From Chrysomallon squamiferum (taxonomy: Eukaryota; Animalia; Mollusca), in contig CM022665.1 in the NCBI GenBank assembly GCA_012295275.1, positions 25,792,001 to 25,856,000 of the forward strand: a DNA stretch of 64,000 nucleotides, written 5' to 3'. Position numbers and translations under genes: made by a program. Under the pieces are notes generated by a model. That model saw nothing but the letters and a program-made list of their open reading frames with translations, was not told where the DNA came from and did no database searches. Shown piece after piece: positions 12,101 through 53,718 of the stretch; position 1 is the first letter of the stretch, and every line of letters starts with the position of its first letter.

Positions 12101-15100
12101 GCTTTCAGCATGACATAACCCATTAATTATCATTACAAACACAAAACAGATTCTCTTATTTTTTGTACAAAAAATATTTTATGTATAGAATTTTTAATTT
12201 CAAATCATGTTTTTACTACAGATGAGTTTTCTTTCATACATGAAAGTAATCTTTCAGCATGTCTGTTTTTTGTAGTTAAAAAACCCCAGCTGTTTTGGCT
12301 ACCTACCACATAGATGTTATTTGCAAATACATAATCCAGTATATACTGATGTTGGAAAAAGTAAATGGGGAAATAAAAACATAACATCAGTCACCTAGTA
12401 CTAAAACAGACCATTATTCAAAGATTTTCAAGACTTTGAATTTAACAGAAAACTGTCAGTGCATTTGATAATTATAAAATTATATTAAATGTAATAATTT
12501 TAAGAAGGGCTCACTTTCTACAATTTCTGTCTTCAATAATCTTTCATTTGATGTCTTCTACATTTGAAATTAATTTCTTCAGTTCTTTTCAGTGAGCACT
12601 GTCCATGACTGTTTACCTACCTTATTTGTCTGCCATACCTATCCTCCAATCCATTCTTCTCTCTATATATGTTTCACTCTCCAGTGGTTGCAGCAAACCA
12701 CATACTTAACAATCTACCAGTCTGTTTATTATTTTACTGCTGTTTATTACTTACCCAGTTTCTTGTTTCCTGATCAAAGTCTATACAATGGTCCAGTGGC
12801 AAGCCCTCGATGTATTCTGTTGTGAAGACCAGTTTAGTACTCAGGTCATCTATTACTTCAGGCACATAATATGCTGGATAGTCCTTCAGTAATTCTCTAT
12901 TAAAAATCAATCAGTATATTGCAAAATTATATATTTTATACAAATAACAATCAATAGAAGACAAGTTTTATCATGGTTAAAAATAAATGAGATATTTATG
13001 ATAAACCATAAGTAATCATTTCCGTGTAATTATGGATAGGTTTTTCTTGTTCTCTTCATCTTCATTTCAGACCAATGTTCTCATACACATTTTTTATTAA
13101 TGTTCATGTTTATCTAATTTCTGTACATTCTTATAAAATATATACACTTATATAGCAATTTATATTTACTTAGAAACATACAATAGCCTGGAAGATGAAA
13201 TACCACTATTACTGAAGCTCATGCTCAGAATTATTGTTAGATGTTTTATTTTTATTTTTAATCTTTAAAAATATGAAAGACAAAATAGATTACTGTGCAC
13301 TTATATCAAGAGTTTCAAGAAACTTATGTTAAAATGCTGTTTATTTTTTTCATTTATTTTTTGTTTTGTTATATCAACACTTTCAACTTTGAGTGCAAGC
13401 AAGTCCACACAGTGTATATGGATTAACCTAAATACTGAGACTAGGTCATAAAAGTTAAATGTGGCTTACAATATATTATTTTAAATGCATACATTTTTTT
13501 TAAATTGTGCCTTTCTCTCACTGTAAGTATGTTAAATTTAACAGTCTTACCTAAACAGTCTACAGTATTTTGCTTCTCTGATGTAGTCAACTTCCCAAGC
13601 TAATTCTGTTTTGGCTACTTCTATAGCACTTTCAATGTACATACCTGAAAAAAACATTATCTGTGCAACACAATATCTCTTAGGAACAAATATATTAATT
13701 TTTGCTTACACAATATCTCTTAGGAACAAATAAATTAATTTTTGCTTACACAATATCTCTTAGGAACAAATAAATTAATTTTTGCTTACACAATATCTCT
13801 TAGGAACAAATAAATTAATTTTTGCTTATACATTTTACCATTGCCAGTTAACAGCTGTCATGTGATTTCTAATCTTAATGTATAAGGTAAGAAATCTATG
13901 GATTAATCTTACTTATTAACAGAATATATATTTTACAAGAACAGATAAGAAGACAATAAAGGATTTGAGTGTATTTTGTTAAGCATTTTTAAGAATTTAA
14001 ATCTGGTAGCTGCATTGAATGAATCTTCATTTATTTTATTTACCATCACAAGCTGGTTTTTACATAATGATTGTATGAGAAAGGAAATCTGCTGCTACTA
14101 CTTCATGGAAACTGTCATTAAATAACTAAAGGTTGGGGTTTTTTAAACCTTAACTTTTTAATAAAGAATGAAGCATATACTATTGCCATGGGCAAACAAG
14201 TCAAAAAACTATAGTCTGAATAATTATTAAGATGTTAAATTTAATATAACTAAGCAAGTTAGGTTGGTGAATTTAGTGTAACACCTACATCACAGAACAG
14301 ATTAATTTTCTGTTTTTCAATAATCATTTTGGGTTTTATTTAATTTTTCTTTGACAAAGTTTTTCAAAAATTGCTTTGTGTGCATTATGAAAGTTCTGTA
14401 TTTTGTATATTAAAAATAACGATGTGTAGTGCAATTTATAGATCCTAACCATAACTATTTTATAAATAAAAGTAAAGTATTAATCAAAATGAATGAATTT
14501 CTTACATCTGTTAAAACTGCATTTCATACCAATAGCATAATTATGTATAAGTAGTACAAGAACTGGTATTAAATTTATTTCCCTTTACCAGAATTTCATA
14601 AAGTATTAAAAAAAAAAAATTGAATAAATTATCTGCGATTTTCTTGTTAGTAATAATTAAATATATTGTGTTTTATTTATTCTTACCAGGTGGTAGTATC
14701 TCCCAAACATTCAACACAGCCATCAGATTGTTGATGTCACTATCAATACTTTTGGCAACCCCTGGATACTGTAATATAAAATAAGACTCGTATGCATGTG
14801 ATGTTATTATTACATTTGTTTAATATTATAAGGCAATTATAATTATTTTCTTTACACTAGCAGTATTAACACAAAAAGAGCATTTTTACGAACTTTATTA
14901 TTGTGACTCTGCTCTAGCAGTATTTACCTGAACTTTAACGGCAACCTTTCTGCCATTTTTCAGCGTGGCCAAATGAACCTGTCCAATGGAGGCAGCAGCA
15001 AAAGGTTTCTCATCAAAAGATGAAACTTTACTTCTCCAGTCTGGTCCAAGCTCTTTGTTCATTACTTTCTAAAACAAACATGTGGGAATGAATGACTGAA

Positions 15101-18100
15101 TGAATGTTAGTGACACCTGAACATTTTTTTAATATTTGTGTCTTTGGGTTGTTAAAAACAGAGCTGTGTAATGATAAATAAAGACTAAAAAAAAGGTTGG
15201 CTGCTGATAGCAGGAAAGATGTAAAAACAGACTAGCTGATATTTCTTCATAACTCTCCTGTAGCATTTAGCTACATCTTCGTTGGAATGCAGGAACAGCA
15301 AAAATAAATATATAATTACTCTACTTTTCTGTTAGCCAGAAAGGTAAACAATTTATTATTATTATAATTTTTTATTTTTTATTTATTTTTGCTGTTTCAT
15401 GTTCAAATTATAACCTGGATGAATATAACACATAAAAAAAAAAGTAAATAACACTTAAAACAAATTTGTTTTCATTTTTAAAAGCATTTAGTAATTATTA
15501 CCAATTTTTGTTTTGGTTAATTTTATGCATTAAAAATTAATATGCTGACACCAATAATATGTGTAAATAGTTAATGGAAGAAATCTTTGAAAAACTTTTT
15601 CTCAGATGAAAATATGAACTCTACCAGTGTCTGTGATGAAGGCATAAAATCAGCACTCTGACGAACCCGCTCAAATATTGCCTGCCACTGAGGACTGATC
15701 ATTGAATTATCTAACAACAGTGACAAAATAATAATAAACAAAAATAAAAATCTGTTTGTCCTCAGAATATAAAAACAGATAATAATTATTACTGACATTT
15801 AAAACAGCAAATCTAGTAAATGAAATTTTGTTTATTATTGTTTTGAGTCAGTCAGACCGTATATTTTGAATTACTGAATAGCAATGGTGTAAAAACTTTC
15901 ACACAGATTCATTATCTTTTACAGTGGTTGTACATGTCCGATTATGAAAAATAATTTATTACTAAAAAATATATATAAAGAGAAGTAAAATTCAAAAAGA
16001 TAAATTTACACACTTAGATCAAAAAAATTACTTTAAAAATCTCAAAAGAAAGTTACCTTGAATACTAAGCAGCTGACCCAGTTTGAGGGCAGCTCCACGA
16101 ACACGACACAGGGTATTTACAATTCTTTCTGCATTAGCTTCAGTCAGAAAAGGACTTTTAGCTAAAATTTAAAAAGGTAAATCAAAAAGCCTTACATTTA
16201 CTGGCTTTAAAACAGTTAACAGATCTGTGGTTTAATTGCCATGAAAATCAAAAAGATTAAAACCAAATTTTAAATAGACTATTTGATCAAGTTTATTAGT
16301 TGAAAAGATGTGGAATAACTTATGAAATATTAATTATATCATGTATAAAAGAAATATTAAATATATTTTATTCTTAAACAAAAAGTACTTTATATTTAAA
16401 TTTTTTAAATTTAAAATCTGAAGAGAAAAGAAAATTACAGTTTACCTTTATCCCCTAAACCCACAGACCTCCTGGCTACTTCTGCTAAAGCTCCAATTCC
16501 CAGGCCAGCTGCAAGACCTAATGGAAGAAGACAGAGAACAAATAAATATCCCCAAATTAATAATAATAAATACAAGTCAAAGTTATTTAACTGTACACAT
16601 GCAAAACTAACAATACCACAGAACAAAAAATGAAGGATAAACAGGGAAAATAAATGTCTGTGTGTGTGCTTTATTAGTCTTGCTAATTGAAATACTGATT
16701 GTAACTAATTTATAATTCTTTTTAATAATTAATTATGGCTTATAGAAAAACAACAGTGCTGCTTGGGAAAGCACATACCATGAAATTTTAACACTCCAGC
16801 TGTAAACCACAGTCTGTGTGTAATGAAAAGGATTGATCCTGTGCCCTATCATGCTGCAGGTAAAGACTTTACATTGAACTATACAACTAGTTCCAGATAA
16901 ATGCTTTGAGAGGACTATAAAACATATGGTACTAATAAAATATTGTTAAAGACTAATATATATCAAAAAAGTTAAATTAAATTTAAAAAAAAAGACAGAT
17001 ATATTTTAAACAATATACCTCCATAATTGACAAGACGACTAACTCTGGATACTGGAACCCGTCTCTGACGAGATGATGGATTAAGCTGTAAATAACAGAA
17101 TAACAAATTTTACATTTCATAAATTATCATCTTACCCAGAGGTAATCAACTTAATAATTACTAGAGCAAGTTTCACTATTTTACACGATTCTAATCAACT
17201 AGTATTGGTTAACTGCAAGATAATTGTTTGTTTTGTTGGGCTTTTTTATATTAATAATACAAAATAAAATTTAACAATTTTATTTAAATACTTTATATTT
17301 TAAAACATTTAAAAAACAGTTCTTGTTTAATTTTAAAGTTTGTTTTTATAATAATATCTCTTGAATATATACACACACACACACACACATTTTGGACAAT
17401 TTTTAATATATAGCTTGAGAAAAAACTGCCTATATTTGTCCTTTTATATGAACTTTCCTTTATTATATAAAACACATGCAGCTGTTTTGGTAACCAACTA
17501 CATAGCACTGGCATCAACGGGAAACATCCCAAAGGATGTTCAAAATATATGAGATAGATTTTCCTTTGTATATTTCTTCTAAACATAGACATCAAATACT
17601 GGAATGAAAAACTAATACAAAATTTTAATGACCATAGAGGCAAAATCCTACTTTATTTTCTTCAGACATTAAAAACGTTGCTGAATCTGTTTTCACTGGT
17701 GCTTGTTTTGCTGGTTGGTTAGTTTTCACAGCTGTAGGTGAAGGTGTCTCCTCCTGTGAGATTCTTTCTGATGCATTACGAGGTAAGTTAGTTGTTTTAA
17801 CTGTGGAAACCTTCTTGTGTTCTTGTTTCTTGTCTTTTTCTCTAGAACTGTCCCTAACAACACTATCTGATTGAAAATTTGTATTAAAATCACTTTCAGA
17901 AGAAAATATTTTTTTCTCCTTTATAACGTCATCTGTTGCACTATCTTGTTCAGGCTTCTCCTAGTATTAAATGAAAAAAAAAAATGTACATAAATGCAAT
18001 TATAATCAATAAACTTATCACCCATTTTCAAATTTAGGTGTAAATAAGACACTTGTATCTTACATATAAACTCAAAGAAAGCTGATGTTTTATTCAAATA

Positions 18101-18255
18101 TATATATTTATCAGATTTAATGTAATTCAAAAATGAAATATTACTGTTTACAAAAAAAAATTATTTCACAAAAAATCAGCAAACAGCCTAATGAAATATT
18201 AGATCTGTATTGTATTCACATATCTAATTTTAGATATTCAAGATACGTATTATTT

Positions 18256-18298
<43 letters not shown>

Positions 18299-18562
18299 CA
18301 ACAACAACAATAATTAATAAATTTACATAGCTCAGATGAGACTTTCTGTTTTTATTTAATTATTTACCTGAGTGCTGTAAGATGGTTTTGAATATGAAGT
18401 GCATGTTTCCTTGGTTTTAGTTGTACATTCTTCAACAGCAGTGCGTAAACTGGAATTCATCCATATCCTTGACCATTCATTGCTCTGGTATTTAAACAAA
18501 GCCTTGGAAATATTTTCAAGTCCTCGAATAAATCCAGCTAAATCTCCAACCCTTCCAGCCAT
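763..18562 (-). CDS. COQ8: Atypical kinase COQ8 (ADCK3/ADCK4, UbiB family), mitochondrial; 12 coding exons in the window, final exon(s) lie beyond position 1
   Basis: Exons 18368-18562, 17652-17960, 17019-17085, 16446-16517, 16057-16161, 15625-15710, 14928-15068, 14687-14768, 13551-13644, 12755-12896, 1300-1407 and 763-915 join through GT-AG sites into 518 open codons. Motifs: [16 protein letters not shown] (KxGQ), [10 protein letters not shown] (A-rich loop), [25 protein letters not shown]. No stop is reached. Confidence 0.95.
1300..1407 (-). CDS. COQ8: COQ8 coding exon 11 ([36 protein letters not shown])
   Basis: Catalytic-loop QTDPNWSNF; tttcag acceptor, AAA|GTAAGT donor. Confidence 0.96.
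3829..4920 (-). CDS. Intronless class A (rhodopsin-like) GPCR, 363 aa, adenosine-receptor-like orphan; nested in a COQ8 intron
   Basis: Seven hydrophobic segments with GN (TM1), LAVAD (TM2), C3.25 and DRY (TM3), W4.50, FWMPY (TM6), NSMVNPIVY (TM7), helix 8 FRDTF plus CC; N-terminal NxT sequons. Position 3.32 is Ala, so it lacks the aminergic Asp. Confidence 0.93.
   Translation of the reverse strand: MAENTTVFEFINNFTTVQSVSEKNAKLDLILFGRIFAGIDICLAPFIIGGNLLVLVAVCSEPKLQTITNSYIASLAVADLLVGLVTIPLYSLFYLKIGKLDENKYACLFRCGMAIYSCGSSLLNLLLMSFDRYLAVIYPLKYLALMTPGRAKRALTFLWVFSTVLSFLPLAGWNTWKENSPCDLYTVLSKEYIYIAVHVQVLGCLTFTSLMYIRIFYTARRHHRQIQATCVYASAMAKKKTEKEISSAKVMSLVLLLFVLFWMPYMACSALKYIKSVPWDLVEVLKSFALCLSMSNSMVNPIVYAFLKKDFRDTFKKFLFRKFGCCFRHGEMTVQSIANIPDGHVLSSSKVIPEENALSITQI
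6385..6460 (-). promoter_or_regulatory. Candidate core promoter of the nested GPCR (CCAAT box, TATA box, Inr-like sequence)
   Basis: Minus-strand TATAAATA at 6422-6415, CCAAT at 6456-6460, Inr-like TCACAGT near 6390, in a locally CpG-enriched patch inside a CpG-poor intron. Confidence 0.4.
7257..7798 (+). mobile_element. Non-autonomous pogo/Tigger DNA transposon (internal-deletion derivative)
   Basis: TIRs CAGTGGAACCTCGGGTTACGAAC and GTTCATAACCTGAGGTTCCACAG (3 mismatches in 23), TA on both sides (7255-56, 7799-7800). Internal ATG at 7619 gives [36 protein letters not shown], resembling the Tigger transposase N-terminal HTH. Confidence 0.85.
9031..9100. repeat. (AAT)n microsatellite preceded by (AAC)n
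   Basis: Directly visible. Confidence 0.95.
12755..12896 (-). CDS. COQ8: COQ8 coding exon 10 ([47 protein letters not shown])
   Basis: Phase 2/0, donor TGG|GTAAGT. Confidence 0.95.
13551..13644 (-). CDS. COQ8: COQ8 coding exon 9 ([32 protein letters not shown])
   Basis: ELxxExDYxREA motif; phase 1/2. Confidence 0.95.
13668..13827. repeat. 40-bp minisatellite, 4 near-identical copies
   Basis: Unit ACACAATATCTCTTAGGAACAAATAWATTAATTTTTGCTT repeated 4 times. Confidence 0.95.
14687..14768 (-). CDS. COQ8: COQ8 coding exon 8 ([27 protein letters not shown])
   Basis: ttacag acceptor, CTG|GTAAGA donor. Confidence 0.95.
14928..15068 (-). CDS. COQ8: COQ8 coding exon 7 (…[26 protein letters not shown])
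   Basis: A-rich loop and VAVK lysine. Confidence 0.96.
15625..15710 (-). CDS. COQ8: COQ8 coding exon 6 ([29 protein letters not shown])
   Basis: [13 protein letters not shown] motif; phase 1/0. Confidence 0.95.
16057..16161 (-). CDS. COQ8: COQ8 coding exon 5 ([34 protein letters not shown])
   Basis: Contains the UbiB KxGQ motif; canonical splice sites. Confidence 0.95.
16446..16517 (-). CDS. COQ8: COQ8 coding exon 4 ([24 protein letters not shown]), transmembrane helix
   Basis: GxxxG-rich TM segment typical of COQ8; phase 1/1. Confidence 0.92.
16765..16895 (-). mobile_element. Decayed mollusc-type tRNA-derived SINE fragment
   Basis: GCACATACCATG...GGATTGATCCTGTG...TGAACTA resembles the copies at 37480 and 47390; family assignment is from memory of gastropod Meta/MESC-type SINEs. 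Confidence 0.35.
17019..17085 (-). CDS. COQ8: COQ8 coding exon 3 ([22 protein letters not shown])
   Basis: ttacag acceptor, GAG|GTATAT donor; matches the conserved COQ8 RxVPxxRxxRL segment. Confidence 0.9.
17652..17960 (-). CDS. COQ8: COQ8 coding exon 2, low-complexity N-terminal region (EKPEQDSAT...SEENK)
   Basis: 309 nt open in phase 0/0, acceptor tactag, donor AAA|GTAGGA. Confidence 0.75.
18368..18562 (-). CDS. COQ8: COQ8 coding exon 1 ([15 protein letters not shown]...YSTQ)
   Basis: ATG at 18562, acceptor tttttaatag before 18580, donor CAG|GTAAAT, phase 0. Confidence 0.8.
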
Positions 18563-18899
18563 GGTAAATATATTCCAGAACTATTAAAAACAGTAACACA
18601 AATTTGTATTTTATTTAAGTAACTGAAACTTTTATTGTTTATTATTATTATTATTTTTATTTTTATTTTTTTTTAAATGTTATGAAAAATAATCTCTGAT
18701 CAGTTCATCTAGATTTGTTTACTAATACATATTTTAATTATTGCATCAGGAAGGATTAAACTTAGGTGACAGTGTGTAGTCTCTTTATTTGTGCATTCTA
18801 AATATTGTTTTATGTTCTGAAAACAATCTTTATTGATTCTAAATTCAAGTTCATGCTTAATATCCGTTGATCTCACTCACTTTCAAAGAGTCTTTGACA

Positions 18900-22331: not shown

Positions 22332-25300
22332 GAAACTTATTGAGAACTGCATATATTACCAGGTGGTGGACATGGTATTTGCAGTATAATTAATCAACAA
22401 TTATAGTCCCACAGCAAGTGTGATGTCTCATCTGCAGAAAACAGAGTGCCATTAAAATAATACTAATATTAAATGAAAATAATGATAATTAATGCTACAA
22501 CTAGCAAGCTAGATAATGAATTAAAAAATAAATAACAATAATCTTTGAAATAAAACAGGTAAAATCTGTTTGATGATATTTGTTTTGATAAATGTACACA
22601 ATGCATGCTTTTATAACAGTGGATGCATATATAAATATATTTCATGTAAATGCTAGCGATAAACTGACAGTGATGGCATGAAGTGTTAAAACAGCAACTC
22701 CTTTGAGCTGGTCACCAATATTTTTGCTTTGTTTTGTTATTTTTTTTCTCTCAAAATCTTCCCAGTTTCTGACAGGAAATCCTCATGCCACCACTGGAAA
22801 CCAATGGCAGTCTGTACTCTGCAATGGACATTCAGTTACCCCGACACACTACTGAACAAGTCAGCAAATACCAAGCACAACCTTGTGCACACACATCTTT
22901 GTTACAAAACAAGCTATCTGGGAAACAGAGTACATAATATAGAGAGCATCACCTGGAATAATAATATTAATATTAATAATATTAATTCTTTGAAAAAAAA
23001 AAGAAATTTAATAAAAAAATCTTTTTTTTTTCCTTTTATGCTATTATTTTCTTCACATTTTTGTGAATATTATGACATATTAGATCCTCAACCTGAACTA
23101 TACCACTGTTGTGTGCAGAATATGCAAAGTAATGACTAAAAAAACCCAAAGTGACCAACCTTACCACAGTACAACTGAGAACATATAAAATACACATAAC
23201 AATGGTTACAAACAGCAACTATTATATTGCTTTTTCCTTAAGTTCCAGACTTCAAACAAAATGTGCAGGTATATGAAAACTGTTTTTAAAGTAAAGCCAC
23301 ACAATTCTGCAACTACTGAATACATCAACCAACTCTCCATTTTATGTACTCTTTACTCTTGAGAGAGAGGTTTTGAGAAAGCCCACCACACAGCATACCA
23401 TAATCCTTCTAACTTATTTTTTCCCAATAATATCTTGATCTTTCTTTTTAAATATATATATATAAAATAATAATAATAATAATAATTATAATAATAAAAA
23501 GAAAAAGTGAAATAAAACGGAAAAAGTTAAAAACCAATACCAAAACTTAGGTATTCTTAGTTTGCAACAAAACCCTTGAACCATTAAACTGGACAATATC
23601 ACAAATAGAAAGGATGAAAAACAATATTTAAAAAAAAAAAAAAAAAAAATTAGAAGGATTACAGCATGCAAACATACTTTATTTTTTAAATATATTTTTA
23701 AATGTTGCCAACGTACACACGCATTGTTGGCACAATCGGTGTTTCACTTCACATACTGGAGATCCACACCATAAGGAAAGACATCGGGCTGTGACAAACA
23801 CCAGATCTCATGGGAAATGCGTGGCCTATCCAGGAATATATGAGTATAAAACAATCAAGGATCACATGCAGAACTGAAATCAACTGAACGGGCTGCTGAA
23901 ATGAACAGACAGATGGCAGATTTAATAAGAAAAGCAGAGAAAAGAAGAAGTGAAGGATAAAAGAGGCTCCTTAATGTCACATGCATGTACCTTTAATGAA
24001 TAATCACATCTTATTGCATATTTCACCTGTCCATCAAAAATCACAGTGTAACTGGAAGTAACAAACTAACAAAACTATAAGTGGGAAACACGACAATGCT
24101 GTATCTAAGATAATAAATAGTAACTAAGCAAATCCTATTGTTCCCACAGTTTCATGACTCATCTAATCTAGAAAGTCTTAGAATTTACATATTCAATAGA
24201 ATAATGAAACATCTAAAATGGTTAACACTCGGTACCATCTTCCAACATTTAACAGCACACAGATTGAACGGATCATGAGAGAAGAAGAGAAAAAAGCAAG
24301 ATTAAAGTGGAAAGTCGGAAAAGAAAAATGACACAAAAAAACAGAATAAAAAGCGAAAGGGTGGAAAAAAAAACACAAAAAAAACAAACAAGGAAAAAGG
24401 CAAAGGAAAGAAATACCCGTTCAATTTTTTTTTATTTTTTTTTTTTAAACAATTGTTTGTTTTCTGTTGTTGTTTTTTTTTTTGTTTTTTTTTTTAAAAC
24501 GCACACTTCCCTGGTTACAATGCACACAAATGATTTCATGCTAGATTAAGAAGACAAATGACTACAATCTGGGTCCAGTTGCATGGTTCAAAATAAATAT
24601 AACTCCTCAATAATTACACTTAACATAGTGATTAGATCATGTATATATGAAACGTGGTTAACAACTTTGAGTTAAATAATAACAATCAATTCAACTAATA
24701 AAACAACTTTTTACATAATACAATATTCCATTTAGTTACACATGAATATGATACAATTTCTGTTGCATGATAAATGTGACTAATATATATACTATATAAA
24801 TCCTTTCATTCTATGAAAGTCTTTGAGGTTTTGAAAGTGGAGAATATGTAATAAATCTGTAAGGAGTGCACTAATGTCACGAAAAAAAAAACGAAAATAA
24901 AAACGAAAAAAAAAACACCCAACAATAACTTGATGACTGATCTCCAAGTACAAAATAGTCCTGAACAATGGTCTACAAATGTCTAAGTAGCCATTTTGGT
25001 TTTATTGAAAGACCTCGAGGAGGATGCGGCAAGTTTGCATCAGACGGTAAAAATAATATGCAATGTTGGAAAAGTCTTGTTGTTGAAACTATGAAGAAGA
25101 AAATTTTTTTTAAAAATTAAAAAAAACATCGAACGAATCTGTTGTGAAAATGTGTGAGATCAGAGTGATGTATATATACAGAAGTTCCTAATGGTTGTTG
25201 TCTGTTTCTTTCTTTCTTTTTTTTCTATTACAGTCCAAAATGATGTGTTGGTTTACAGCAGAGTTATCTGGGATGAACATGCAATGCAAATGTACATGTA

Positions 25301-25457: not shown

Positions 25458-26614
25458 CTAATGACCTGAAGCTTGACGGGCACGTTTGTACTCCTCCTGC
25501 TGAATGCGTTGTTGAATCATGTACTGTGCTTTAGTTATGTTAGATGGTGTTCCAGTGATAGATACTATGCGGTTTCGGGTTCCTGGGGTGTATACACCTT
25601 TTTTCGAGATTTGAATATTGGTACCAGTATACTGCTGTATTTCCACAATGCCCTTTCCACCAGGGCCCAGTATAGCTCCAACGATACTCTCTGCTACTTC
25701 CAGATCCTGTTTTGTAGTTCCAGATGTCTTGTCTTCTGTAGGGCTATACATTCCTGTACCAAGACCAAATGAATTTTGGTTAACACTGATATTTGGAGAC
25801 CTATCACCAGCAGGGAAACCTTGGGCAGTGCTGGGGTAAGTGATAGCACTAGAGAAGGAATCATTTAACATGGGACTACTTCCGTATCTTTCCTGTTGTA
25901 CACTAGGGGAAGAGCTTCCAAACAGACTAGAGTTGGCACCTGTAGAACCAGAGCTACCAAGTCCGGATGAACCACTGCCAACAGGACCAAACAAACTCGT
26001 GGCACTAGCTGAATTATTGCTAGTGTTGAGGTATGGACTGGCTTGGGAAACATTTCCCGAAGCTGACGATGTGCTTGTCATCAGTGGTGTTGATCCTATG
26101 GCTGGGGTACCCAGATTCAGATTACCTATACCAGTGTTGCCACTGATATTCTGTGGTACATTCCCAAGATTATTGACACCAAGACCTAATCCCATTCCAA
26201 GTATTCCATAGTTAGCTAATGTATTCATAGCCTGACTTATTTCCTCAGTTGCCTGGTCTGTAAATCCACTACCTCTTAAAGTCACTTTCAAGTTGTCGAT
26301 GTTGGCGCCTGACATTGCACCCGGTGCTCCTGCATTGAAATTCATTCCAGTTGCTAAGTTGGTGTTTAATGTATTTCCATTAAATCCGAAACCGAAACCT
26401 CCACCACCAGCAAAATTATTGTTGCCAATCGCCATTTCTTGACTGCGATTCTGAATAAAAGTGCTGTTAGCGAAAGGTGAACCTGTGGGATTGGCACTGG
26501 CTACAGGACCCGTATAATCTGCATAGCTGATATTTGGACAACTTCCACTCTGTGGATCTTCAACAATCTTCTGAAGTATCATATCTATAGCCTTTGTGTT
26601 GGAATCAAAATCAC
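25458..26614 (-). CDS. Nova: Nova coding exon 5 (last helix of KH2, low-complexity linker, KH3, stop)
   Basis: ttttgcag acceptor, 1157 nt in phase 1 ending RQASGH*. Confidence 0.96.
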
Positions 26615-29600
26615 CTGCAAAATACAGAAGTTACAAAGCACACCATTAACAGATTTTTATATTAAAAATTACAGGTTTCCAAACACTGTTTTCAGTTCTT
26701 GCAAAAAGAACCAGCAAATAAATAATACTAATCTATTTTAATACTTTTTTTTTTTTTTTAGCTCATATTGGCCCGTATTTTTCAATATCCATTAAATAAT
26801 TAGTATTAACTAAATACTCAAATTTCCAAAAAAAATCATTTATATAACCTTATTGACTGCAATTTCTGTTTTTACTACTGATTTTTAAGTCCTTCAATTT
26901 TTAAAAATATTCATGCCCAGCTTTAATGGAATATGACTATATCATAAAGAACTGTTTTTCTTATGTTATTCATTAAAAAAAATAATAATAATAGGAACTT
27001 TAAATACAAGTGTAACTGACATGCTACTTTCCACAACCACCCTTGATGAATGAAATGATAACCCTTTTATGAATATCTGACCAGATGGAATGATGATATC
27101 AATCCAGATAATATGATAATGGTGATATGAAATGAAATAAAGTGAAAATGAACGAGATGATATGGGAAAGTTTAATTTATATAATCAGAGACCTGGACAA
27201 ATAGTTAACTTATGAAAATGTGATCTATTTTAACAGTTCTGAATTGTGTTTTAATGATAACTATAATGATTACTTATTATCTCCCTTGATAATAAACATT
27301 CTGCAATATTAGGATCAAAGAAATATATAATTTCGAGACTCCAAAAAAATAAAATGCATTTTTAAAAATATACAGCTAATTCACAAGAATAATTAACAAA
27401 ATTTACTTCATAATTAGTCACCTTTACAACTAAAGATCTTGTAAAAAATGCAATTAAAACATGAATTACAGTGATTAAAACTGGTCTAGAATTTTGTAAT
27501 TAAAATGCCAAAATCATTATCTGCTCAAAGTAATTTTAAATCAAAATATTTTAAATTAATTTTAAATTAAATTTTTACGTACCTTGAGGGTAAACAATAT
27601 GTCTTAGTGAAATGAGAATGAAAATGACATGATACCTGTGATCTCACCTGCTACAGTCACACATCTCTCAGGTAAATTGGTTTCTTTTGACTTTTGTGAA
27701 ATCTGTACATACGCTCCACTTTCTTCTTTTATTTGTTTGATGAAGTTTCCGGCTTTTCCTATGATCATCCCAGCTGTACTGTTTGGTACAAGGATTTTTA
27801 CCTGCAAGAACAAATCATATTTTTTTAAGAAAATAAAAATATTTGAGATGATAATAATTACAATTAATTTTATTTTTTTATTTTTTTTATTTTTAATAAA
27901 TGGTATATCAAATATCTTAATTGAAGTTTAGAAATCATGTTATAGACAGACATCCAAATGAAATTAAAAAATTGCTTACGACCAATACTGTTTTCTTTAG
28001 AAACTATAAACTGCTACAGAAATACACTGCAAGTAAGGTTGGGCATTTTAAACTTGACATGAGATGATTATGTTATCTAATTATGGTCTGCAAAGAAGTA
28101 TTAAACTTAAAGCATATGAAATATTCAGCAGCAGCCAGCTCAAAATTTTGAAATGTGTATTAAATTCTATCTAAACATACCTGCCGATGCCGTTCAAATG
28201 TTGACTTTGTTTCATCCATTTTGGGATTAGGGTCAGGTTTTTCTCTAATTTTTTCCATGACAAAATTATGAACTTGGCGAACTGCTTCGACGGGACCCAT
28301 AATGAGACAGACGCGTTCAGTTGTTCCTGAAAAATAATTAAATAAAAAGACGTAACATTATTCTTACAGTTGGCACTGACTGGAAATAATGTAGCAACAA
28401 CAACAACAAAAAACACTGTTGCATCAAAAATGTCTTTTTGTTAAGTACTGCAGTTTATTACTTCTGACATTTTATCTGCATTCCTACAGACGGAAAGAGA
28501 TTCTCAAAGACTGACCCCCCCAAAAAAACAAATGTAATATAAATACTTGTAACACAAAGGCATTAATCAAATCTGAGGTAAAATGGATAAATAATGAATA
28601 AAACTGTTTCTCTAAACTTAGTATGTAATTAATATTTTTAAACTCATTTTAATTTCTTAAATATATTTTAAAAATTTAAATTTTGTTAAGATTTACAACT
28701 GAAAAATATACTCTTGAAAAACAGAACAAAATATATCCTGCAAGATTTGATACATTATATAGTGCTGCATACTCCTTTTTTTAACCTGTTATTAAATACT
28801 GTGTTTTTGTTTTTTATGCAGCCAAATTGTCATTGTATTTAGTCTACATTTGTTACTGATAAATATATTAACAATTTCATTATGTGTAAAAGTAATATTT
28901 GTTTATCATTTTATGTATCTGCATGTTATCTTTTTCAGCCATGTTAATTATTTTAAGTCAACCAGTGTATAATACAGTTGAAAACTAATTTGTTTTTATA
29001 TATATCTGGCTTATAATTAATAGAAAACAGTTTGCTTCTATTATACTTTCTTATATACTGACAGATGACCACTTAAATGCTTATGTTACCATAAAACTGG
29101 AAACATTTATTTGGATTAGATGAAAATACTTTGTACCAAAATAAAAACTCCCATGTCATATACTACTTTATAGACTTTTCTGCTGTTACCAATAAATAGA
29201 ATATATTGATTAATAATGACAAAATAATTAATATGAATTTTAAAATGTCATTTTATGGGAAGTAGCATCTTGCAGCTATTTTCATCATCTACAGATTCGG
29301 TTCATTTTATGGAAATCAATGCTGATTTATTTTCACACTATTTTACTAGCTGCATAAACATTACTGAAATTACTAATTGTATAATCTCTGTCATTGAAAT
29401 GAATTAATTCACAGGCTAATTAAGCCTAGCAAGTCTTTTACACTTTCTTTATTTCACTTTTGTACTAATAAAAGCAAACTTTTTTGCTGAATATTCTTAA
29501 ACCAACAATAATACTAACCCAATCCCAGTAAAATATTAAGATTTAGCATAATGTTTTATTTGTTTTCCTGTTGTTGTTTTTATTTTAGTGAAATAAATAC

Positions 29601-32600
29601 TTGATCATTTTTAAAACATACATGTGTATGTTAATGAAACAGTATTAGTCACCCAAAATTACCTGGATAAAAATCATTTGCTTTTGACATCTTAACTCGG
29701 GCGCCTGCATCTTTCTGAACTTGTGCAATGGTTTCCCCACCTTTTCCAATAATGGCACCGGCAGCTATACTGGGCACAAGAATTTTTAAGTGAATGTTTT
29801 CACCTGAAAGTATAAATATATATATGTAGTTATAATCAAAGATCAGGTAATGTACCTTACATATTTTTATTTTTTATATATAAACCTTTGCATAATTATT
29901 ACAAACACACAAACTGCTGCAAGGAATAGTTTATTTCACTCATATAGGTATTAAGTACTAGACATCAGCATGCATATTGTGTACACCATTAAGGACATTG
30001 ATCAGAATGGAAAGTCCACAGCTAAATTATCTGCCCATAATACATACTGGCTATGTAGATAAAATAATTAAAGTTGTATTATGCAGATAAATTCACCCAA
30101 GTCCATTGTCTCCTTCAATATGAATGATCATCTGCCAACTTACTAACCTCTGCTATGTTCCATGCTTTATGTGCCAACTATCTAGCAACATCTGCATTTT
30201 CTAATGATTTCATCCATATGGCAACATTGTCAATACAAACTAGAAAAAATCTTTGCTTCTGGATACTTCTCTGCCTCTAAGCAGAGGAGGAAGTGTGTAT
30301 CTACACTACAAAATGTCATTGAAAGGTCAAGAGTTTTCTGTTAAATACACACAACAGATCTACACGCATCTACGCACAAACACAGGTTCATATATAAACA
30401 TGTTCACTCACATAATACATATATTCATAACATACAAATATAGAAGTCAAAACGTACAAATTGTGTATTACTTCTGTGGAAATTACCAAGTGTCATCATA
30501 TATTCATTGATTTATGCTTTAGGCCATTTTCAGAATATCAGATAGAAAGTTTATAGTGGGAGTCACTTTCTCCACGCACCCTAATTTCCATCACTCAAAA
30601 ATAATTAAATGCATTAAAGAAGACCACAAACTATGATAAATCAACCTCTGACTGGTATATTAGAATCAACGCTGTGTACGTTGCAACTAATAATTAATTA
30701 TATGTACACGTGTAACTATATACTGAAGTTGACAATAGATTGTGTTTGTGTTCCCTTGGGCAACAATATTTTTAAGAATAAATGAACCTAATGAAGGGTA
30801 AATGTACGTAACAATACTTAAGCACTGTTGTGGAATAGCTTCCCTGCTACTTTCAGACTATTTGGTAACCATAATAAAAACACTTCAAAAAGGATATCTG
30901 TAACCACAAAGCCCATTGTTTGTTCTCTCAAACAAAATGTTTTAATTTCCTTTTATTTCCACACATACATTTCCTCACATATTTTTTTTTTTTTCCCCAT
31001 GTTCTTTTTAAAATTATGTCATTTTTTCCCTGCCTAATGTGTTAAGGTTAACACTACAAAAACAAAACATTGATTTTTAAAAAAATTATATGACAATAAC
31101 AGGACCAGAGGGCAGAAAGAGTGAAGGTGATGTAAGGTCAATGTTTCTGAGACCAATTGGAATGTTTGACTAGTTACAATTTGCAAAGTGTTACTCACCA
31201 TTAACAAACATATCATTGTTTTCATTTAACCTTTATTATTACAGAAAATACCCTGCATTATAGAAGATAAAAGATGGAACAGACAGTGAGGTCAACTGAC
31301 CCAGGCCTTTGAATGTTGCTGGTCTATAGCAAACATGTACATTCTGTAACAGCTGGCAAACAGTCTAATGTAATATTTATTGTACATACATACATACATA
31401 CGTACATACACACATATATATTTAATAGCAACATGATGCATAACCGTCTTACACCACAAAAGAGAATATTACCTGGAACGAAAATTAAAAAAGGTCTCAC
31501 TGTCTTACCTGGAAATGTTAAAGGAAACATATATACATCTGCAAATACATGTACAAGTGGGCTGTAGCAGTCTGGAGGTGTAAATGCATATGCAGATGTT
31601 GGTCCACTTCAGAGAGTGGCACTGTGCCAGATGTACATAATTACTGCTGTCAGACCCACACCAACAAGGCACACTGGGCCACAAGTTTATGTAAAATGTA
31701 CATCAATCAATGGAATAACAACACGATCAATAACGTCAAACCCAAACAATATGCTCTTTCTATCTTGTTCAACTATCAGAAATCAAACTTTTTATATTTT
31801 TTTATATGGTATACATACAAGACACATACACAAAATATTTATCAGAATAAATACATCATAAAGTAATATTTGCTATTATCTCTTCTCAAAGGACTTGGAT
31901 ATATTGTCTGGTTTCTTGTTTCTGTATCCTATGTGGTATTTTTAAGTTTTTTTTCTGTGAAGTCATACAAGTATGCAAGCAAGTGCATTCACGGAATGTG
32001 CATATGACTATCAAAGTGCATGCAGCATGTGTACGAGTGCTGTTTTTCGCCAAAGACAGTAAACCATCATCAAAATTAACAGAATGATTATCATGGCTTT
32101 TTGAAATATTCAGCTTGCAAACATTGTCTGATGCAAGAGATTGTAGATCATGTTCAATACATTATGTTTCTACCATAAGGTTACAATTATCTAAAAACAG
32201 GATATTTACAGATCTGATAAAAGCAATGAAGTATAAAGTTATTTTATTTACACAAAACCCACGATCTTTTGTTGTAGTGTGGAACAATGGAAATTTAAAT
32301 TATACTAACTTAGAAAATTACTTTAAAAAAAAAAAAAAAAAAAGTGATTTTAAACATGAAAATTTATACCTTTCTGATGTTTGCATCAAACAAATGTCAA
32401 AATGCAAAGCATTAAGTGCTGTTTTATCACATTAAATGACACTTAACATGCACCTCAGCCTTAGAGCTCCAAGTAAGATCTAGTTGATTCCCCTCTTTTT
32501 TAAAAATTACTTAGGTGTGTTATTAATAACTTCTGTTATTTCTTAGGAAGAGCATGTATGAGATGAGCCCTTAGAACATCCTTAGTACATTTTCTGATTT

Positions 32601-51000: not shown

Positions 51001-53718
51001 AAACAAAATGGTAGAAAAAAATCATAATCAACATACTGTATGTTAATATATATTAACTGCCATACTTTATACAAAGTGAACAGTAATAATATGCAATGAA
51101 TTATGCATGGGATTTTGCATTTTGCATTTGTATGAAACTAAAGCCAAGAATGCCTAGCTAAAGAAATTCATGACAGCAGTGCCATTTACAGAGTTATTTG
51201 TGTTGTCTATTCTCAGATTAACACCGTTCATTTTATTGTAATGTGCAGATCTAATAACCAAACCCTCTACTTCAAGCAAAAGTAATCTATAATTCTATTC
51301 AGCATGTAACCTCAACAACTGGACAATTACACCCTCTGTAATTAGTAAACTATGCTTTAATGCAAGTTTGCAGTATCCTTATAAAGGTTGTACAGTCAAA
51401 ACGCATGTGTGCATATGATTGTGCAATAATTTTATATATATATAGATATAGATATAGCTAGTTTTTAAAGTATTCAGTAATACTTTCTGAAATATTAAAA
51501 TAATGAAATCCCTAGTAATCTTTTTGTACCATAAAATTTAACAAAAAAGAATTAACCATGGTAACATCTTAATGAAATTAAATGTGCAGCATCCTCTTTT
51601 ATAGCATTTTAGTGTCATACATTCAATTGTAATTTTCATTTTCAAGCCAAAGATTTTTATTGTACATTTCCATCGTAAGTGTTTTCACTATTGGTGGCTT
51701 AGTAATTAAATTCAGTTCATATTTTGAATCTTAGTTACTTGTAAACGAAAAGTTTTTTTAATTTCAGATTTCCAAATATATTTAAAGGTATGAAATCTGA
51801 AATGTTCAAGTTTGGTATGTTTTGTCAAAATTTTAAATTTTGTACATTATTTTTCATATATGATATTTCATAGTTACATTTCAAATGAAATATTTCACTC
51901 AAATTATTTTCATGAGTGCAGTGTAATATCTTTGAATGTTCACATTACGTCTATTTTTGTATTTGTGACAGTTCAGGTTCTCTACTGCATGACTAATCCT
52001 TTGTGAAGTATATATCTAAACCACCACCACCAAGTATATAGGATTACATCCTATTCAATGTTGCCCATACTGACAGTCTAAATAGTCCTAAAATGTAAAT
52101 TCATATATTCAGTATCTTTTAAGAACCTGAAATACATGTTTAAACACACACAAAAAAAATAAAAAAATAATAATAATTCTTTAAATTATAAAATTGATAT
52201 AAACAATTCATTTTTGAGGATTAAATATGAAAAGTATGTACAACTGTAAAAAAAAAAATTATACTATTCTGTAGATTAAGAATAAAATACAGCATAACAA
52301 ATATAAAAAGGTAACTAAGAATTAGTGTCAGTTAAGTAAATAAATAAAAAGTAAATTAATGTCATGTGATGAGAAGACCATATTTCAAACAGCACAGCAG
52401 TATGGTCTGTGTGTATTACACGATATCAAGAATGTGCTACTTTTAAAAACAAATTACCACATATTGATTCTTTAGAAACGGATACATTGTAATGCTTGAA
52501 TTTTGTTTATTTCCATCTCCAAATGAAGTTAAAAATTGCATCATATAACTGCAATACACCTGTAAAATGTTGCACAGCTGTGCGATCTGTTTGCATAGTT
52601 TTCTCTTCTAGGCGAACTATTTTTGGCTATCCAAGAACTGAATTATGGCAGCCAAGCAATGTGTGATACCAAGTTGGGTAAAGAATGGCCATGGATACCG
52701 ATATGTCCCTGGTAAAAATATGGACTTGTATCTACAATTTGACACGTGGTCAAGTTATGGAAATTCGCTGAAATCAACAAATGTATTGCACGAAGTGGGT
52801 GGAGCACCGGTGCATGTCCACGCAATACACAGGCAAACAGCCGTACACGTTTCCAAACGCCCTTACAAAACCGAACAAGAAAATTTAAAATACACAAAAC
52901 AAACAATACCTCTCCAAATAGGAATAAATGATGGGTCGGGACTGTCTACCATGTTTCTCCGAATGGTACTGTGGCAAATATTTAGGTCGACCAACGTCAT
53001 AATTTCGGAGCTGTTAACTATTCGTCCTTCACTCGCAAGTGCTGGCAACTGACTGAGCATATGACCGTCGAGTTCTCCTTCAACCCCGACCAGATCTACC
53101 CATACATGGGTCAAAGAACAGTCTAATGTGCTAACGTGAATTGGGGTACATAGCATATATGTACTGCGAATAAACGGCTAGCGAAATAGAAATGAGAATT
53201 TTGACACATGTATGAACATACATGCCCGTACACGAAACGCAAGGACAGTCGATGACCGCTGTGGAAAAAAGTTAAATTAAGTGCGTAGAACTAATTATTA
53301 TTTAATCATTAAAAGCAAGGCGATTACAAAAATGGCTTAGAAAAATGCATTAACAAATACTTTACATTTCTTTCCATGATTGTGCGGGGAATTCCACAAA
53401 AAACACATCGAACAAAATTTCGTCGACTCGATTTCTGCCGCCATATTGGCTGAAATGAGTCGCTGGTTCGTTCCAATAAATGATCTTTTTTACAAAAATT
53501 ATATAAGCTTCATTCTAACCTCCACCCTGGTTAGATCGCTTGGTGACCCCGTTATCTGTTTCTCCATCCAAGGGCCTTTTTCTCGAGTCCAAGGTGTCCA
53601 TTTCCGACCCGTTCATCCCGTCGTAGTTCACTGCCATTATGGAGTTGGGCCTGTTCTCGTGGGGTAACGTACCACACGGCGCATGACTCACGAGACTTGT
53701 CGAGGCGCATCCTAGCAT
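25458..53718 (-). CDS. Nova: RNA-binding protein Nova (Nova/pasilla family), 598 aa, three KH domains; 5 coding exons
   Basis: Exons 53520-53718, 29663-29803, 28181-28326, 27648-27801 and 25458-26614 join in phase (1797 nt). Motifs: DSRKRPL NLS, KH1 [11 protein letters not shown]2 [36 protein letters not shown]3 [28 protein letters not shown]. Confidence 0.96.
27046..27165 (-). promoter_or_regulatory. Intronic YCAY cluster (16 motifs), candidate Nova-binding element
   Basis: 16 RTGR tetramers on the plus strand (YCAY on the pre-mRNA) counted in 120 nt. Confidence 0.7.
27607..27641 (-). promoter_or_regulatory. YCAY cluster (6 motifs) just downstream of the Nova exon-4 donor
   Basis: Pre-mRNA sequence UCACagguaUCAUgUCAUuuUCAUucUCAUuUCAC. 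Confidence 0.7.
27648..27801 (-). CDS. Nova: Nova coding exon 4 (most of KH2)
   Basis: [37 protein letters not shown]...ERCVTVA; donor CAG|GTGAGA. Confidence 0.96.
28181..28326 (-). CDS. Nova: Nova coding exon 3 (end of KH1 and linker)
   Basis: [36 protein letters not shown]...ERHRQ. Confidence 0.96.
29663..29803 (-). CDS. Nova: Nova coding exon 2 (KH1, first part)
   Basis: [46 protein letters not shown]. Confidence 0.96.
37480..37690 (-). mobile_element. Decayed Meta/MESC-like SINE copy
   Basis: GAAAAGGAAA..CTACCACTAATGGGTTACTCTTTATTAGCAGCAAAAGATCTTTT..GATAGGA..ATGGCCTTT..TGATCCTGTGA resembles the reverse strand of a gastropod SINE core, recalled from memory and not searched. Confidence 0.5.
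40153..40814. repeat. 65-bp dispersed direct duplication (40153-40217 and 40750-40814)
   Basis: ATGTCCAKAAGGCTTTAAAATTGTTTTTCCAGTACCTACATTTCAWAATTTTCAAYTGGAGGTAA occurs twice, 597 bp apart. Confidence 0.85.
47390..47585 (+). mobile_element. Decayed Meta/MESC-like SINE copy
   Basis: TGGTTATCAAAGGCCATGGTA...ATCCTTGTTGCTAA...GGCAGCTGGTTTCCT...GAGGTATCATTAAAT; reverse-complement similarity to the copy at 37480. Confidence 0.5.
52910..53156 (-). CDS. Nova: Candidate alternative first coding exon of Nova, lacking the NLS (…[14 protein letters not shown])
   Basis: Open frame in a CpG-rich region ending at the donor GAG|GTATTG in phase 1, compatible with exon 2; the start Met is uncertain. Confidence 0.5.
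53437..53447. promoter_or_regulatory. YY1-type motif (GCCGCCATATT) at the start of Nova intron 1
   Basis: Matches CCGCCATNTT inside the CpG-rich 52500-53900 region. Confidence 0.4.
53520..53718 (-). CDS. Nova: Nova coding exon 1 (contains the [11 protein letters not shown])
   Basis: Donor GAG|GTTAGA in phase 1; which ATG is used (53718 or a downstream Met) is uncertain. Confidence 0.85.

What the first reader, a model, noticed from the sequence alone, without database searches (positions are those of the whole stretch)
27046..27165. Very dense second YCAY cluster (16 motifs in 120 nt) in the middle of the last Nova intron
Seen: RTGR (YCAY on the Nova strand) starts at 27046, 050, 055, 069, 085, 090, 093, 113, 119, 122, 127, 132, 142, 148, 157 and 162. 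The spacers vary, so this is not a tandem repeat. A rough base-composition expectation is 1-2 motifs per 120 nt. Inference: a high-affinity Nova platform that works with the donor-proximal cluster, or that controls a cryptic poison exon here (possible acceptor cugguCAG near 27079).
Basis: partly seen in the sequence, partly recalled or inferred. Interest (0 to 1): 0.8.

Follow-up and report, generated by a model that had tools for sequence, protein, structure and literature searches.

The report
Snail Nova self-binding intron cluster
The last intron of a snail's gene for the splicing regulator Nova holds a very dense run of Nova's own recognition word, downstream of two competing splice sites that its RNA does use, so Nova likely tunes the splicing of its own message there, though binding is untested.

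Summary
All 16 YCAY motifs lie at the stated positions on the Nova strand. It is the densest 120-nt stretch on either strand of the 64 kb (next best 9), and no shuffle reaches it. It is not a tandem array or a known RNA family. The gene is a gastropod Nova (last exon 96% identical to Gigantopelta aegis). The second-best cluster of the window lies in the same 1,033-nt intron, on top of two donors 12 nt apart. One RNA run shows both donors joined to the last exon; the longer form adds four residues to a KH2 loop, as do annotated isoforms of Gigantopelta and abalones. Best reading: a distal Nova site acting with the donor-proximal cluster on donor choice, i.e. autoregulation (0.5). The proposed poison exon was not seen in four RNA runs but is not excluded. 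No comparable cluster was found in 25 orthologous introns, none from a gastropod. Genome-wide copy number and binding were not tested. Nova autoregulation is known in mice; the scan earlier noted a similar cluster in an octopus Nova leader.

The parts
27046..27165 (-). Distal YCAY cluster, 16 motifs (the finding); 482 nt after the main donor, 431 nt before the acceptor
   Evidence: highest 45-nt cluster score in the window (36)
27607..27641 (-). Donor-proximal YCAY cluster, 6 motifs; the first lies in the 12-nt extension, the second covers positions +4 to +7 of the downstream donor
   Evidence: (score 30, second highest in the window)
27648..27801 (-). Nova exon coding KH2 up to strand beta-3; main donor (GT at 27647)
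   Evidence: joined to the last exon in 4 of 4 RNA runs
27636..27647 (-). 12-nt in-frame exon extension (adds E-I-T-G) by a second donor (GT at 27635)
   Evidence: joined to the last exon in 1 of 4 RNA runs (X1); same peptide in G. aegis isoforms P0121-P0123
27575..27585 (-). Third, consensus-like donor 65 nt downstream of the main one (GT at 27582); its use would include a stop codon at 27606-27604; no use seen
   Evidence: sequence; 8 of 11 matches to the donor consensus against 7.5 for the main donor; translation; not seen
26615..27647 (-). Last coding intron of Nova, 1,033 nt, 30 YCAY on the sense strand against 14 antisense
27021..27076 (-). Candidate cryptic exon after the proposed acceptor: 56 nt with a stop codon (or 36 nt in frame if the donor at 27041 is used); not seen in RNA
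   Evidence: no joint
25458..26614 (-). Last coding exon of Nova (end of KH2, linker, KH3)
28181..28326 (-). Nova exon coding the second half of KH1
   Evidence: (loose ends)
29663..29803 (-). Nova exon coding the first half of KH1
52908..53637 (-). Two alternative first coding exons of Nova (53637-53518 and 53000-52908)
   Evidence: 100% matches to the N-termini of P0001/P0121 and P0123

Best explanation
The 120 nt are a dense, sense-strand run of YCAY words in the last intron of a gastropod Nova gene and likely form a distal binding platform through which Nova acts on the choice between two donors that its RNA uses, 12 nt apart. Shown: the cluster, a second cluster on top of the donors, and splicing from both donors. 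Inferred: Nova binds both clusters; the proximal one covers the downstream donor and would block it, while the distal one would load or loop Nova onto the intron and favour the upstream donor. High Nova would then give the canonical KH2, and low Nova a KH2 with four extra residues in the loop before helix 3. The direction is the weakest step (about even odds). The same binding may also keep the stop-containing third donor silent.
For: The two highest cluster scores among 88 clusters on both strands (36 and 30; next 18) fall in this one intron and on the sense strand (my implementation of the score in PMC2014790 section 9). In 200 shuffles of the strand, 0 reach 36 and 1 reaches 30; uniform placement would put the second cluster in the same 1,033 nt with probability 0.008, a post hoc figure. 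Run X1 has both donors joined to the last exon (contig depths 150.6 and 62.8). Of 161 parsed homologues (218 held), 8 carry +4 residues here (G. aegis, three Haliotis species), 9 carry +5 (oysters) and 1 carries +6 (Patella); these are automatic annotations. The insert is a loop between strand E180-187 and helix H192-209 in the predicted model, matching the gap against mouse/human Nova-1 KH1/2 (2ann). YCAY specificity and the position map are shared by mouse Nova and fly Pasilla (PMC3165201 passages; PMC4617965 passages), and Ciona Nova uses intronic YCAY clusters (PMC12445529 passages). Extensive and distal clusters, and Nova1 exon 4 as a self-target, are described in PMC3737533 section 16. 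TCAT is the most enriched 4-mer (11 against 0.76); YGCY, TGCATG, TCTT/CTCT and ACTAAY are absent.
Against: No binding or perturbation data. Many high-affinity YCAY sites are non-functional (PMC3165201), and 841,501 clusters are predicted in mouse genes (PMC3737533). The cluster is over 400 nt from both splice sites, outside the usual map. It is absent from 25 orthologous introns in other animals (best 8 per 120 nt), and no gastropod intron could be fetched, so conservation with the alternative donor is untested. Nova's pre-mRNA covers about half of the minus strand, so a top cluster somewhere in Nova is not surprising by itself. Simple repeats can give such scores: 18 per 120 nt in L004, L022 and L024 and score 30 from a (CTCA)n run in L075. 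The longer form appeared in only 1 of 4 runs, all from one study. In a whole-intron fold the motifs are only partly single-stranded (unpaired probability 0.07-0.94).
Confidence: 0.5

Rival explanations
1. The cluster is a Nova site that controls an unproductive event: a hidden poison exon (27076-27021), the stop-containing donor at 27582, or retention of the intron, and so sets Nova levels through decay.
For: The acceptor at 27077 follows 116 nt without AG (17 of 3,161 gaps on this strand are as long) and a 56-nt exon with a stop can be drawn. The third donor matches the consensus as well as the main one. Intronic contigs over the cluster region occur in 4 of 4 RNA runs. In mouse, orphan intronic Nova clusters led to cryptic NMD exons in 11 of 15 transcripts examined (PMC3552424 passages).
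Against: No joint or loose end between 27000 and 27633 in four runs; X1, X3 and X4 cross 27077 collinearly and X1 crosses 27582. The AG-free zone follows partly from the low G content (10 of 120). Candidate exon donors are weak. No homologue among 161 parsed has a longer insert here. Intronic contigs may be pre-mRNA or DNA; no silent control stretch was laid.
Confidence: 0.2
2. The cluster is neutral low-complexity DNA, a decayed (TTCAT/TCAT)-type microsatellite or a fragment of a repeat family, that happens to lie in Nova.
For: A borderline period-5 array lies inside it. Self-shuffles keep 12.7 motifs on average. Repeats produce equal densities in other loci. Not conserved in 25 other introns.
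Against: No periodicity over the segment. No second copy in the 64 kb or in 79 loci by blastn, apart from two 15-nt hits at E 0.4. It does not explain a second, separate cluster on the same strand exactly at an alternative donor.
Confidence: 0.22
3. The cluster is a DNA enhancer (GATA- or TGAT-type sites) or a site for a different RNA-binding protein.
For: Three WGATAR words against 0.44 expected (1.65% of windows have as many). The stretch is U-rich (52 of 120).
Against: YCAY enrichment is far stronger than WGATAR, and both clusters have the same polarity as the transcript.
Confidence: 0.08

Closest known systems
Mouse Nova1 exon 4 autoregulation (Dredge et al. 2005, PMC1142566, title only; described in PMC3737533 section 16 and PMC3165201 passages)
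   Same: YCAY clusters in Nova's own pre-mRNA next to an alternatively spliced, in-frame segment; binding in or at the exon silences, binding downstream enhances.
   Different: Here the event is a 12-nt donor shift inside KH2, not a cassette exon. The intron is not in mouse/human NOVA1, where the terminal exon codes KH2 and KH3 (PMC11836289 passage). No functional data here.
Distal intronic Nova enhancers: Gabrg2 exon 9 (PMC164843, title only), Ptprf exon 6 with 23 YCAY in 200 nt, Ctnna2 exon 17 (PMC3737533 section 16); Ciona Agrin Z exons (PMC12445529 passages)
   Same: Long, irregular YCAY runs far from splice sites in an intron flanking an alternative event.
   Different: Those are validated or CLIP-supported and act on other genes' cassette exons; this one is in Nova itself and untested.
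Nova-regulated cryptic NMD exons (Eom et al. 2013, PMC3552424 passages)
   Same: An orphan mid-intron cluster with a drawable stop-containing exon.
   Different: No such exon was seen in four RNA runs, and Nova-dependent mRNA change is unknown.

Membership tests
Nova/Pasilla gene family | Three KH domains with Nova-type sequence | tested here: met
   KH_1 hits in three exons; last exon 96% identical to G. aegis Nova, best named hits called Nova or Pasilla; the G. aegis isoform P0121 matches PDB Nova-1 KH1/2 at E 1.6e-53
Functional Nova YCAY cluster | Three or more closely spaced YCAY in about 45 nt on the sense strand | tested here: met
   score 36, highest in the window; criterion from PMC3737533 section 16
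Functional Nova YCAY cluster | Motifs accessible (single-stranded) | tested here: inconclusive
   no stable fold (z -0.65); unpaired probability 0.07-0.94 per motif in the whole-intron fold
Functional Nova YCAY cluster | Conserved in orthologous introns | tested here: inconclusive
   absent in 25 of 25 introns from bivalve-like, insect-like and unplaced loci; no gastropod intron available
Functional Nova YCAY cluster | An alternative splicing event in or beside the same intron | tested here: met
   two donors used in run X1; matching isoforms annotated in relatives
Functional Nova YCAY cluster | Nova binds the RNA and the event changes with Nova level | not testable with these tools
   needs CLIP, EMSA, knockdown or minigene
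Nova-regulated cryptic NMD exon | A stop-containing exon spliced in near the cluster | tested here: inconclusive
   no joint in 4 runs, contigs only, no NMD inhibition
Tandem repeat / microsatellite | Head-to-tail periodicity over the segment | tested here: not met
   only a 30-nt borderline hit; no lag above 0.42 identity
Dispersed repeat family | Many copies in the genome | not testable with these tools
   no genome held; no copy in the window or 79 loci
Known ncRNA (Rfam) | Match at gathering score | tested here: not met
   two chance-level hits (E 0.8 and 3.8), neither over the cluster

The most novel reading that the evidence does not exclude
Nova self-regulation is a recurrent invention: in this snail a two-part YCAY element lets Nova rewrite the loop of its own KH2 domain through a 12-nt donor shift shared with abalones, while other invertebrate lineages have built self-binding clusters elsewhere in the Nova message (a conserved YCAY block around a donor-like site 1.5-2.5 kb after the stop codon in seven other loci; an octopus leader in an earlier, unchecked note).
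Probability: 0.25. Interest if true: 0.65.

Novelty: new variant of a known kind. Interest (0 to 1): 0.42.

Why it matters
Nova autoregulation is documented in mice at an exon that lies elsewhere in the gene. A mollusc version acting on a donor inside KH2 would show that feedback of this neural splicing regulator arose more than once, and would tie it to a small change in the RNA-binding domain itself. It gives a compact, testable minigene (one 1-kb intron, two donors, two clusters). Seven literature searches listed no paper on Nova self-regulation or this donor shift in molluscs; the library lacks most subscription papers, so this is not proof of absence.

Tried and rejected
Genome-wide repeat test: impossible, no genome held. 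Gastropod orthologous introns: the metagenome scan gave 79 loci, of which 24 had no intron here, 17 gave a delimited intron, 8 more were bounded approximately and 30 were not usable; the prokaryote and viral collections gave two chance-level hits and none. RNA could be laid only on 27000-27860, so the 3' part of the intron and the acceptor were seen only through loose ends. Absence of the +12 donor in X2-X4 is no evidence of tissue regulation, because contigs drop variants. Intron contigs of X2-X4 cover only the 3' part of the laid stretch and end at 27034, 27141 and 27173 without loose ends; internal priming at an A-run further downstream or an intronic poly(A) site could explain this, but contigs cannot show ends and there is no AATAAA in the intron. 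A 16-bp stem closing the cluster appears when 221 nt are folded alone but not in the whole-intron fold, so it was rejected. Direct and inverted repeats in the intron are short AT-rich matches. A profile of the 3' block from other loci found nothing in this window. Dredge 2005, Dredge and Darnell 2003, Teplova 2011 and the Pasilla RNA-map paper could not be read. Supplements were not consulted.

Full report
Observation. The 16 RTGR starts are at the listed positions. On the minus strand they read as 11 TCAT, 3 CCAT and 2 TCAC, against 1.74 expected. No other 120-nt window on either strand exceeds 9. None of 5,000 shuffles of the intron and none of 200 shuffles of the whole strand reaches 16; the maximum is 10. 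Shuffling only the 120 nt keeps a mean of 12.7 (84 of 10,000 reach 16), so the cluster is largely a patch of TC, CA and AT steps; 16 of its 17 CA steps are flanked by pyrimidines, against 928 of 4,195 on the whole strand. It is not a tandem array, not an Rfam family, not stably folded (z -0.65) and has no second copy in the window or in 79 fetched loci. Genome-wide copy number could not be tested.

Gene. The minus strand codes a three-KH Nova protein. Its last exon is 96% identical to Gigantopelta aegis Nova, so the animal is likely a close relative of that snail. First exons lie at 53637-53518 and 53000-52908. The last coding intron runs from 27647 to 26615 and splits KH2 after strand beta-3. 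The cluster begins 482 nt after the main donor and ends 431 nt before the acceptor.

A second cluster and a second donor. With my implementation of the published 45-nt score (PMC2014790 section 9), the two best of 88 clusters on both strands are this one (36) and one on top of the donor (30); the next scores 18. Shuffles reach 36 in 0 of 200 and 30 in 1 of 200. Four RNA runs of one study were laid on 27000-27860. All four join 27648 to the last exon. Run X1 also joins 27636 to it, a donor 12 nt downstream that adds E-I-T-G; the loose-end letters equal the start of the last exon. Depths of 150.6 and 62.8 show that the longer form is not a trace product but do not quantify it. Among 218 homologues, 161 could be parsed at this junction: 136 have the canonical length, 8 have +4 (G. 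aegis and three Haliotis species), 9 have +5 (oysters), 1 has +6 (Patella), 6 have +1 (crustaceans) and 1 has -3. The first inserted residue fits a donor sequence in each mollusc case, so these are likely donor shifts too (inference). In a predicted model of the G. aegis long form (pLDDT 58 overall, 68-90 in the KH2 blocks) the four residues are a loop between strand 180-187 and helix 192-209.

Poison exon. The proposed acceptor ends at 27077 after 116 nt without AG, as long as only 17 of 3,161 such gaps; with a donor at 27021 it would give a 56-nt exon with a stop, with one at 27041 a 36-nt in-frame exon. A third donor at 27582 matches the consensus well and would bring in a stop. None of these is seen: there is no joint or loose end between 27000 and 27633, three runs cross 27077 collinearly and X1 crosses 27582. 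Contigs drop rare forms and decay would deplete them, so this lowers the idea without excluding it. Intronic contigs (depth 3-12) may be pre-mRNA, retained intron or DNA.

Conservation. The same intron was delimited in 17 loci and bounded roughly in 8 more, of 79. They are two bivalve-like loci, insect-like loci and unplaced loci, many closely related to each other. None has more than 8 YCAY per 120 nt. One (L075) scores 30 through a short (CTCA)n run. The two bivalve-like introns also lack an in-frame second donor in their first 30 nt, which fits either reading. No gastropod intron was available, so the decisive comparison is open. Elsewhere in those loci, 18 per 120 nt is reached three times by CAC/CAT-rich runs. 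Counting only non-overlapping TCAY, this cluster (12) ties for first with a block downstream of the Nova stop codon in L066.

Mechanism. Nova and fly Pasilla share YCAY specificity and a position rule: binding at or in an exon silences, binding downstream enhances, and two sites in one intron can act together by looping (PMC3165201 passages). Long and distal clusters occur and some are validated (PMC3737533 section 16). Applying this by inference: the proximal cluster covers positions +4 to +7 of the downstream donor and would block it; the distal cluster would act as a high-avidity enhancer or loading site for the upstream donor. Nova would thus bias its own KH2 toward the short loop. I put this at 0.5, an unproductive-splicing target at 0.2, neutral sequence at 0.22 and other factors at 0.08. 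Many YCAY clusters are bound without effect, which is the main caution.

Comparison and novelty. It would work like mouse Nova1 exon 4 autoregulation and the distal Gabrg2-type enhancers, but membership in the class of functional Nova sites is shown only for density, strand and a neighbouring alternative event, not for binding or effect. The intron and the event differ from the mouse case. Seven searches listed nothing on this in molluscs; one search returned no paper at all. Verdict: real feature, plausible autoregulatory element, new variant of a known kind, interest 0.42.

Noticed in passing
L060:4132, L061:4118, L062:4243, L066:3165, L068:8436, L073:3960, L078:6452; similar in L037:11081: A conserved YCAY-rich block (9-14 per 120 nt) around an invariant donor-like site, 1.5-2.5 kb after the Nova stop codon, in seven related loci of unplaced invertebrates, with a similar site in L037. 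It could be a 3' UTR intron that triggers decay, a second route to Nova feedback. Not found in this window; splicing untested.
   Followed up: partly
window 27575-27585 (-): A consensus-like donor 65 nt downstream of the main one, just after the proximal YCAY cluster; its use would include a stop codon. Not seen in RNA contigs.
   Followed up: partly
window about 23770-23813 (-); L001:4593-4635: A 44-nt element 89% identical between this snail's Nova downstream region and an Aplysia-like Nova transcript (E 1.7e-7), suggesting a long 3' UTR with a conserved element.
   Followed up: no
L033:4102-4240 and L032/L033 downstream regions: A bivalve-like Nova locus has a donor-like site followed by 10 YCAY about 330 nt after the stop codon; L032 and L033 share several conserved downstream blocks.
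   Followed up: no
window 52908-53637 (-): Two alternative first coding exons of Nova, matching G. aegis isoforms.
   Followed up: no
window about 14700-18580 (-): The next gene downstream looks like a COQ8/ADCK3-type kinase from its reading frames (recalled likeness, no search run); a short TCAT-rich run scoring 18 lies near one of its exons at 15113.
   Followed up: no
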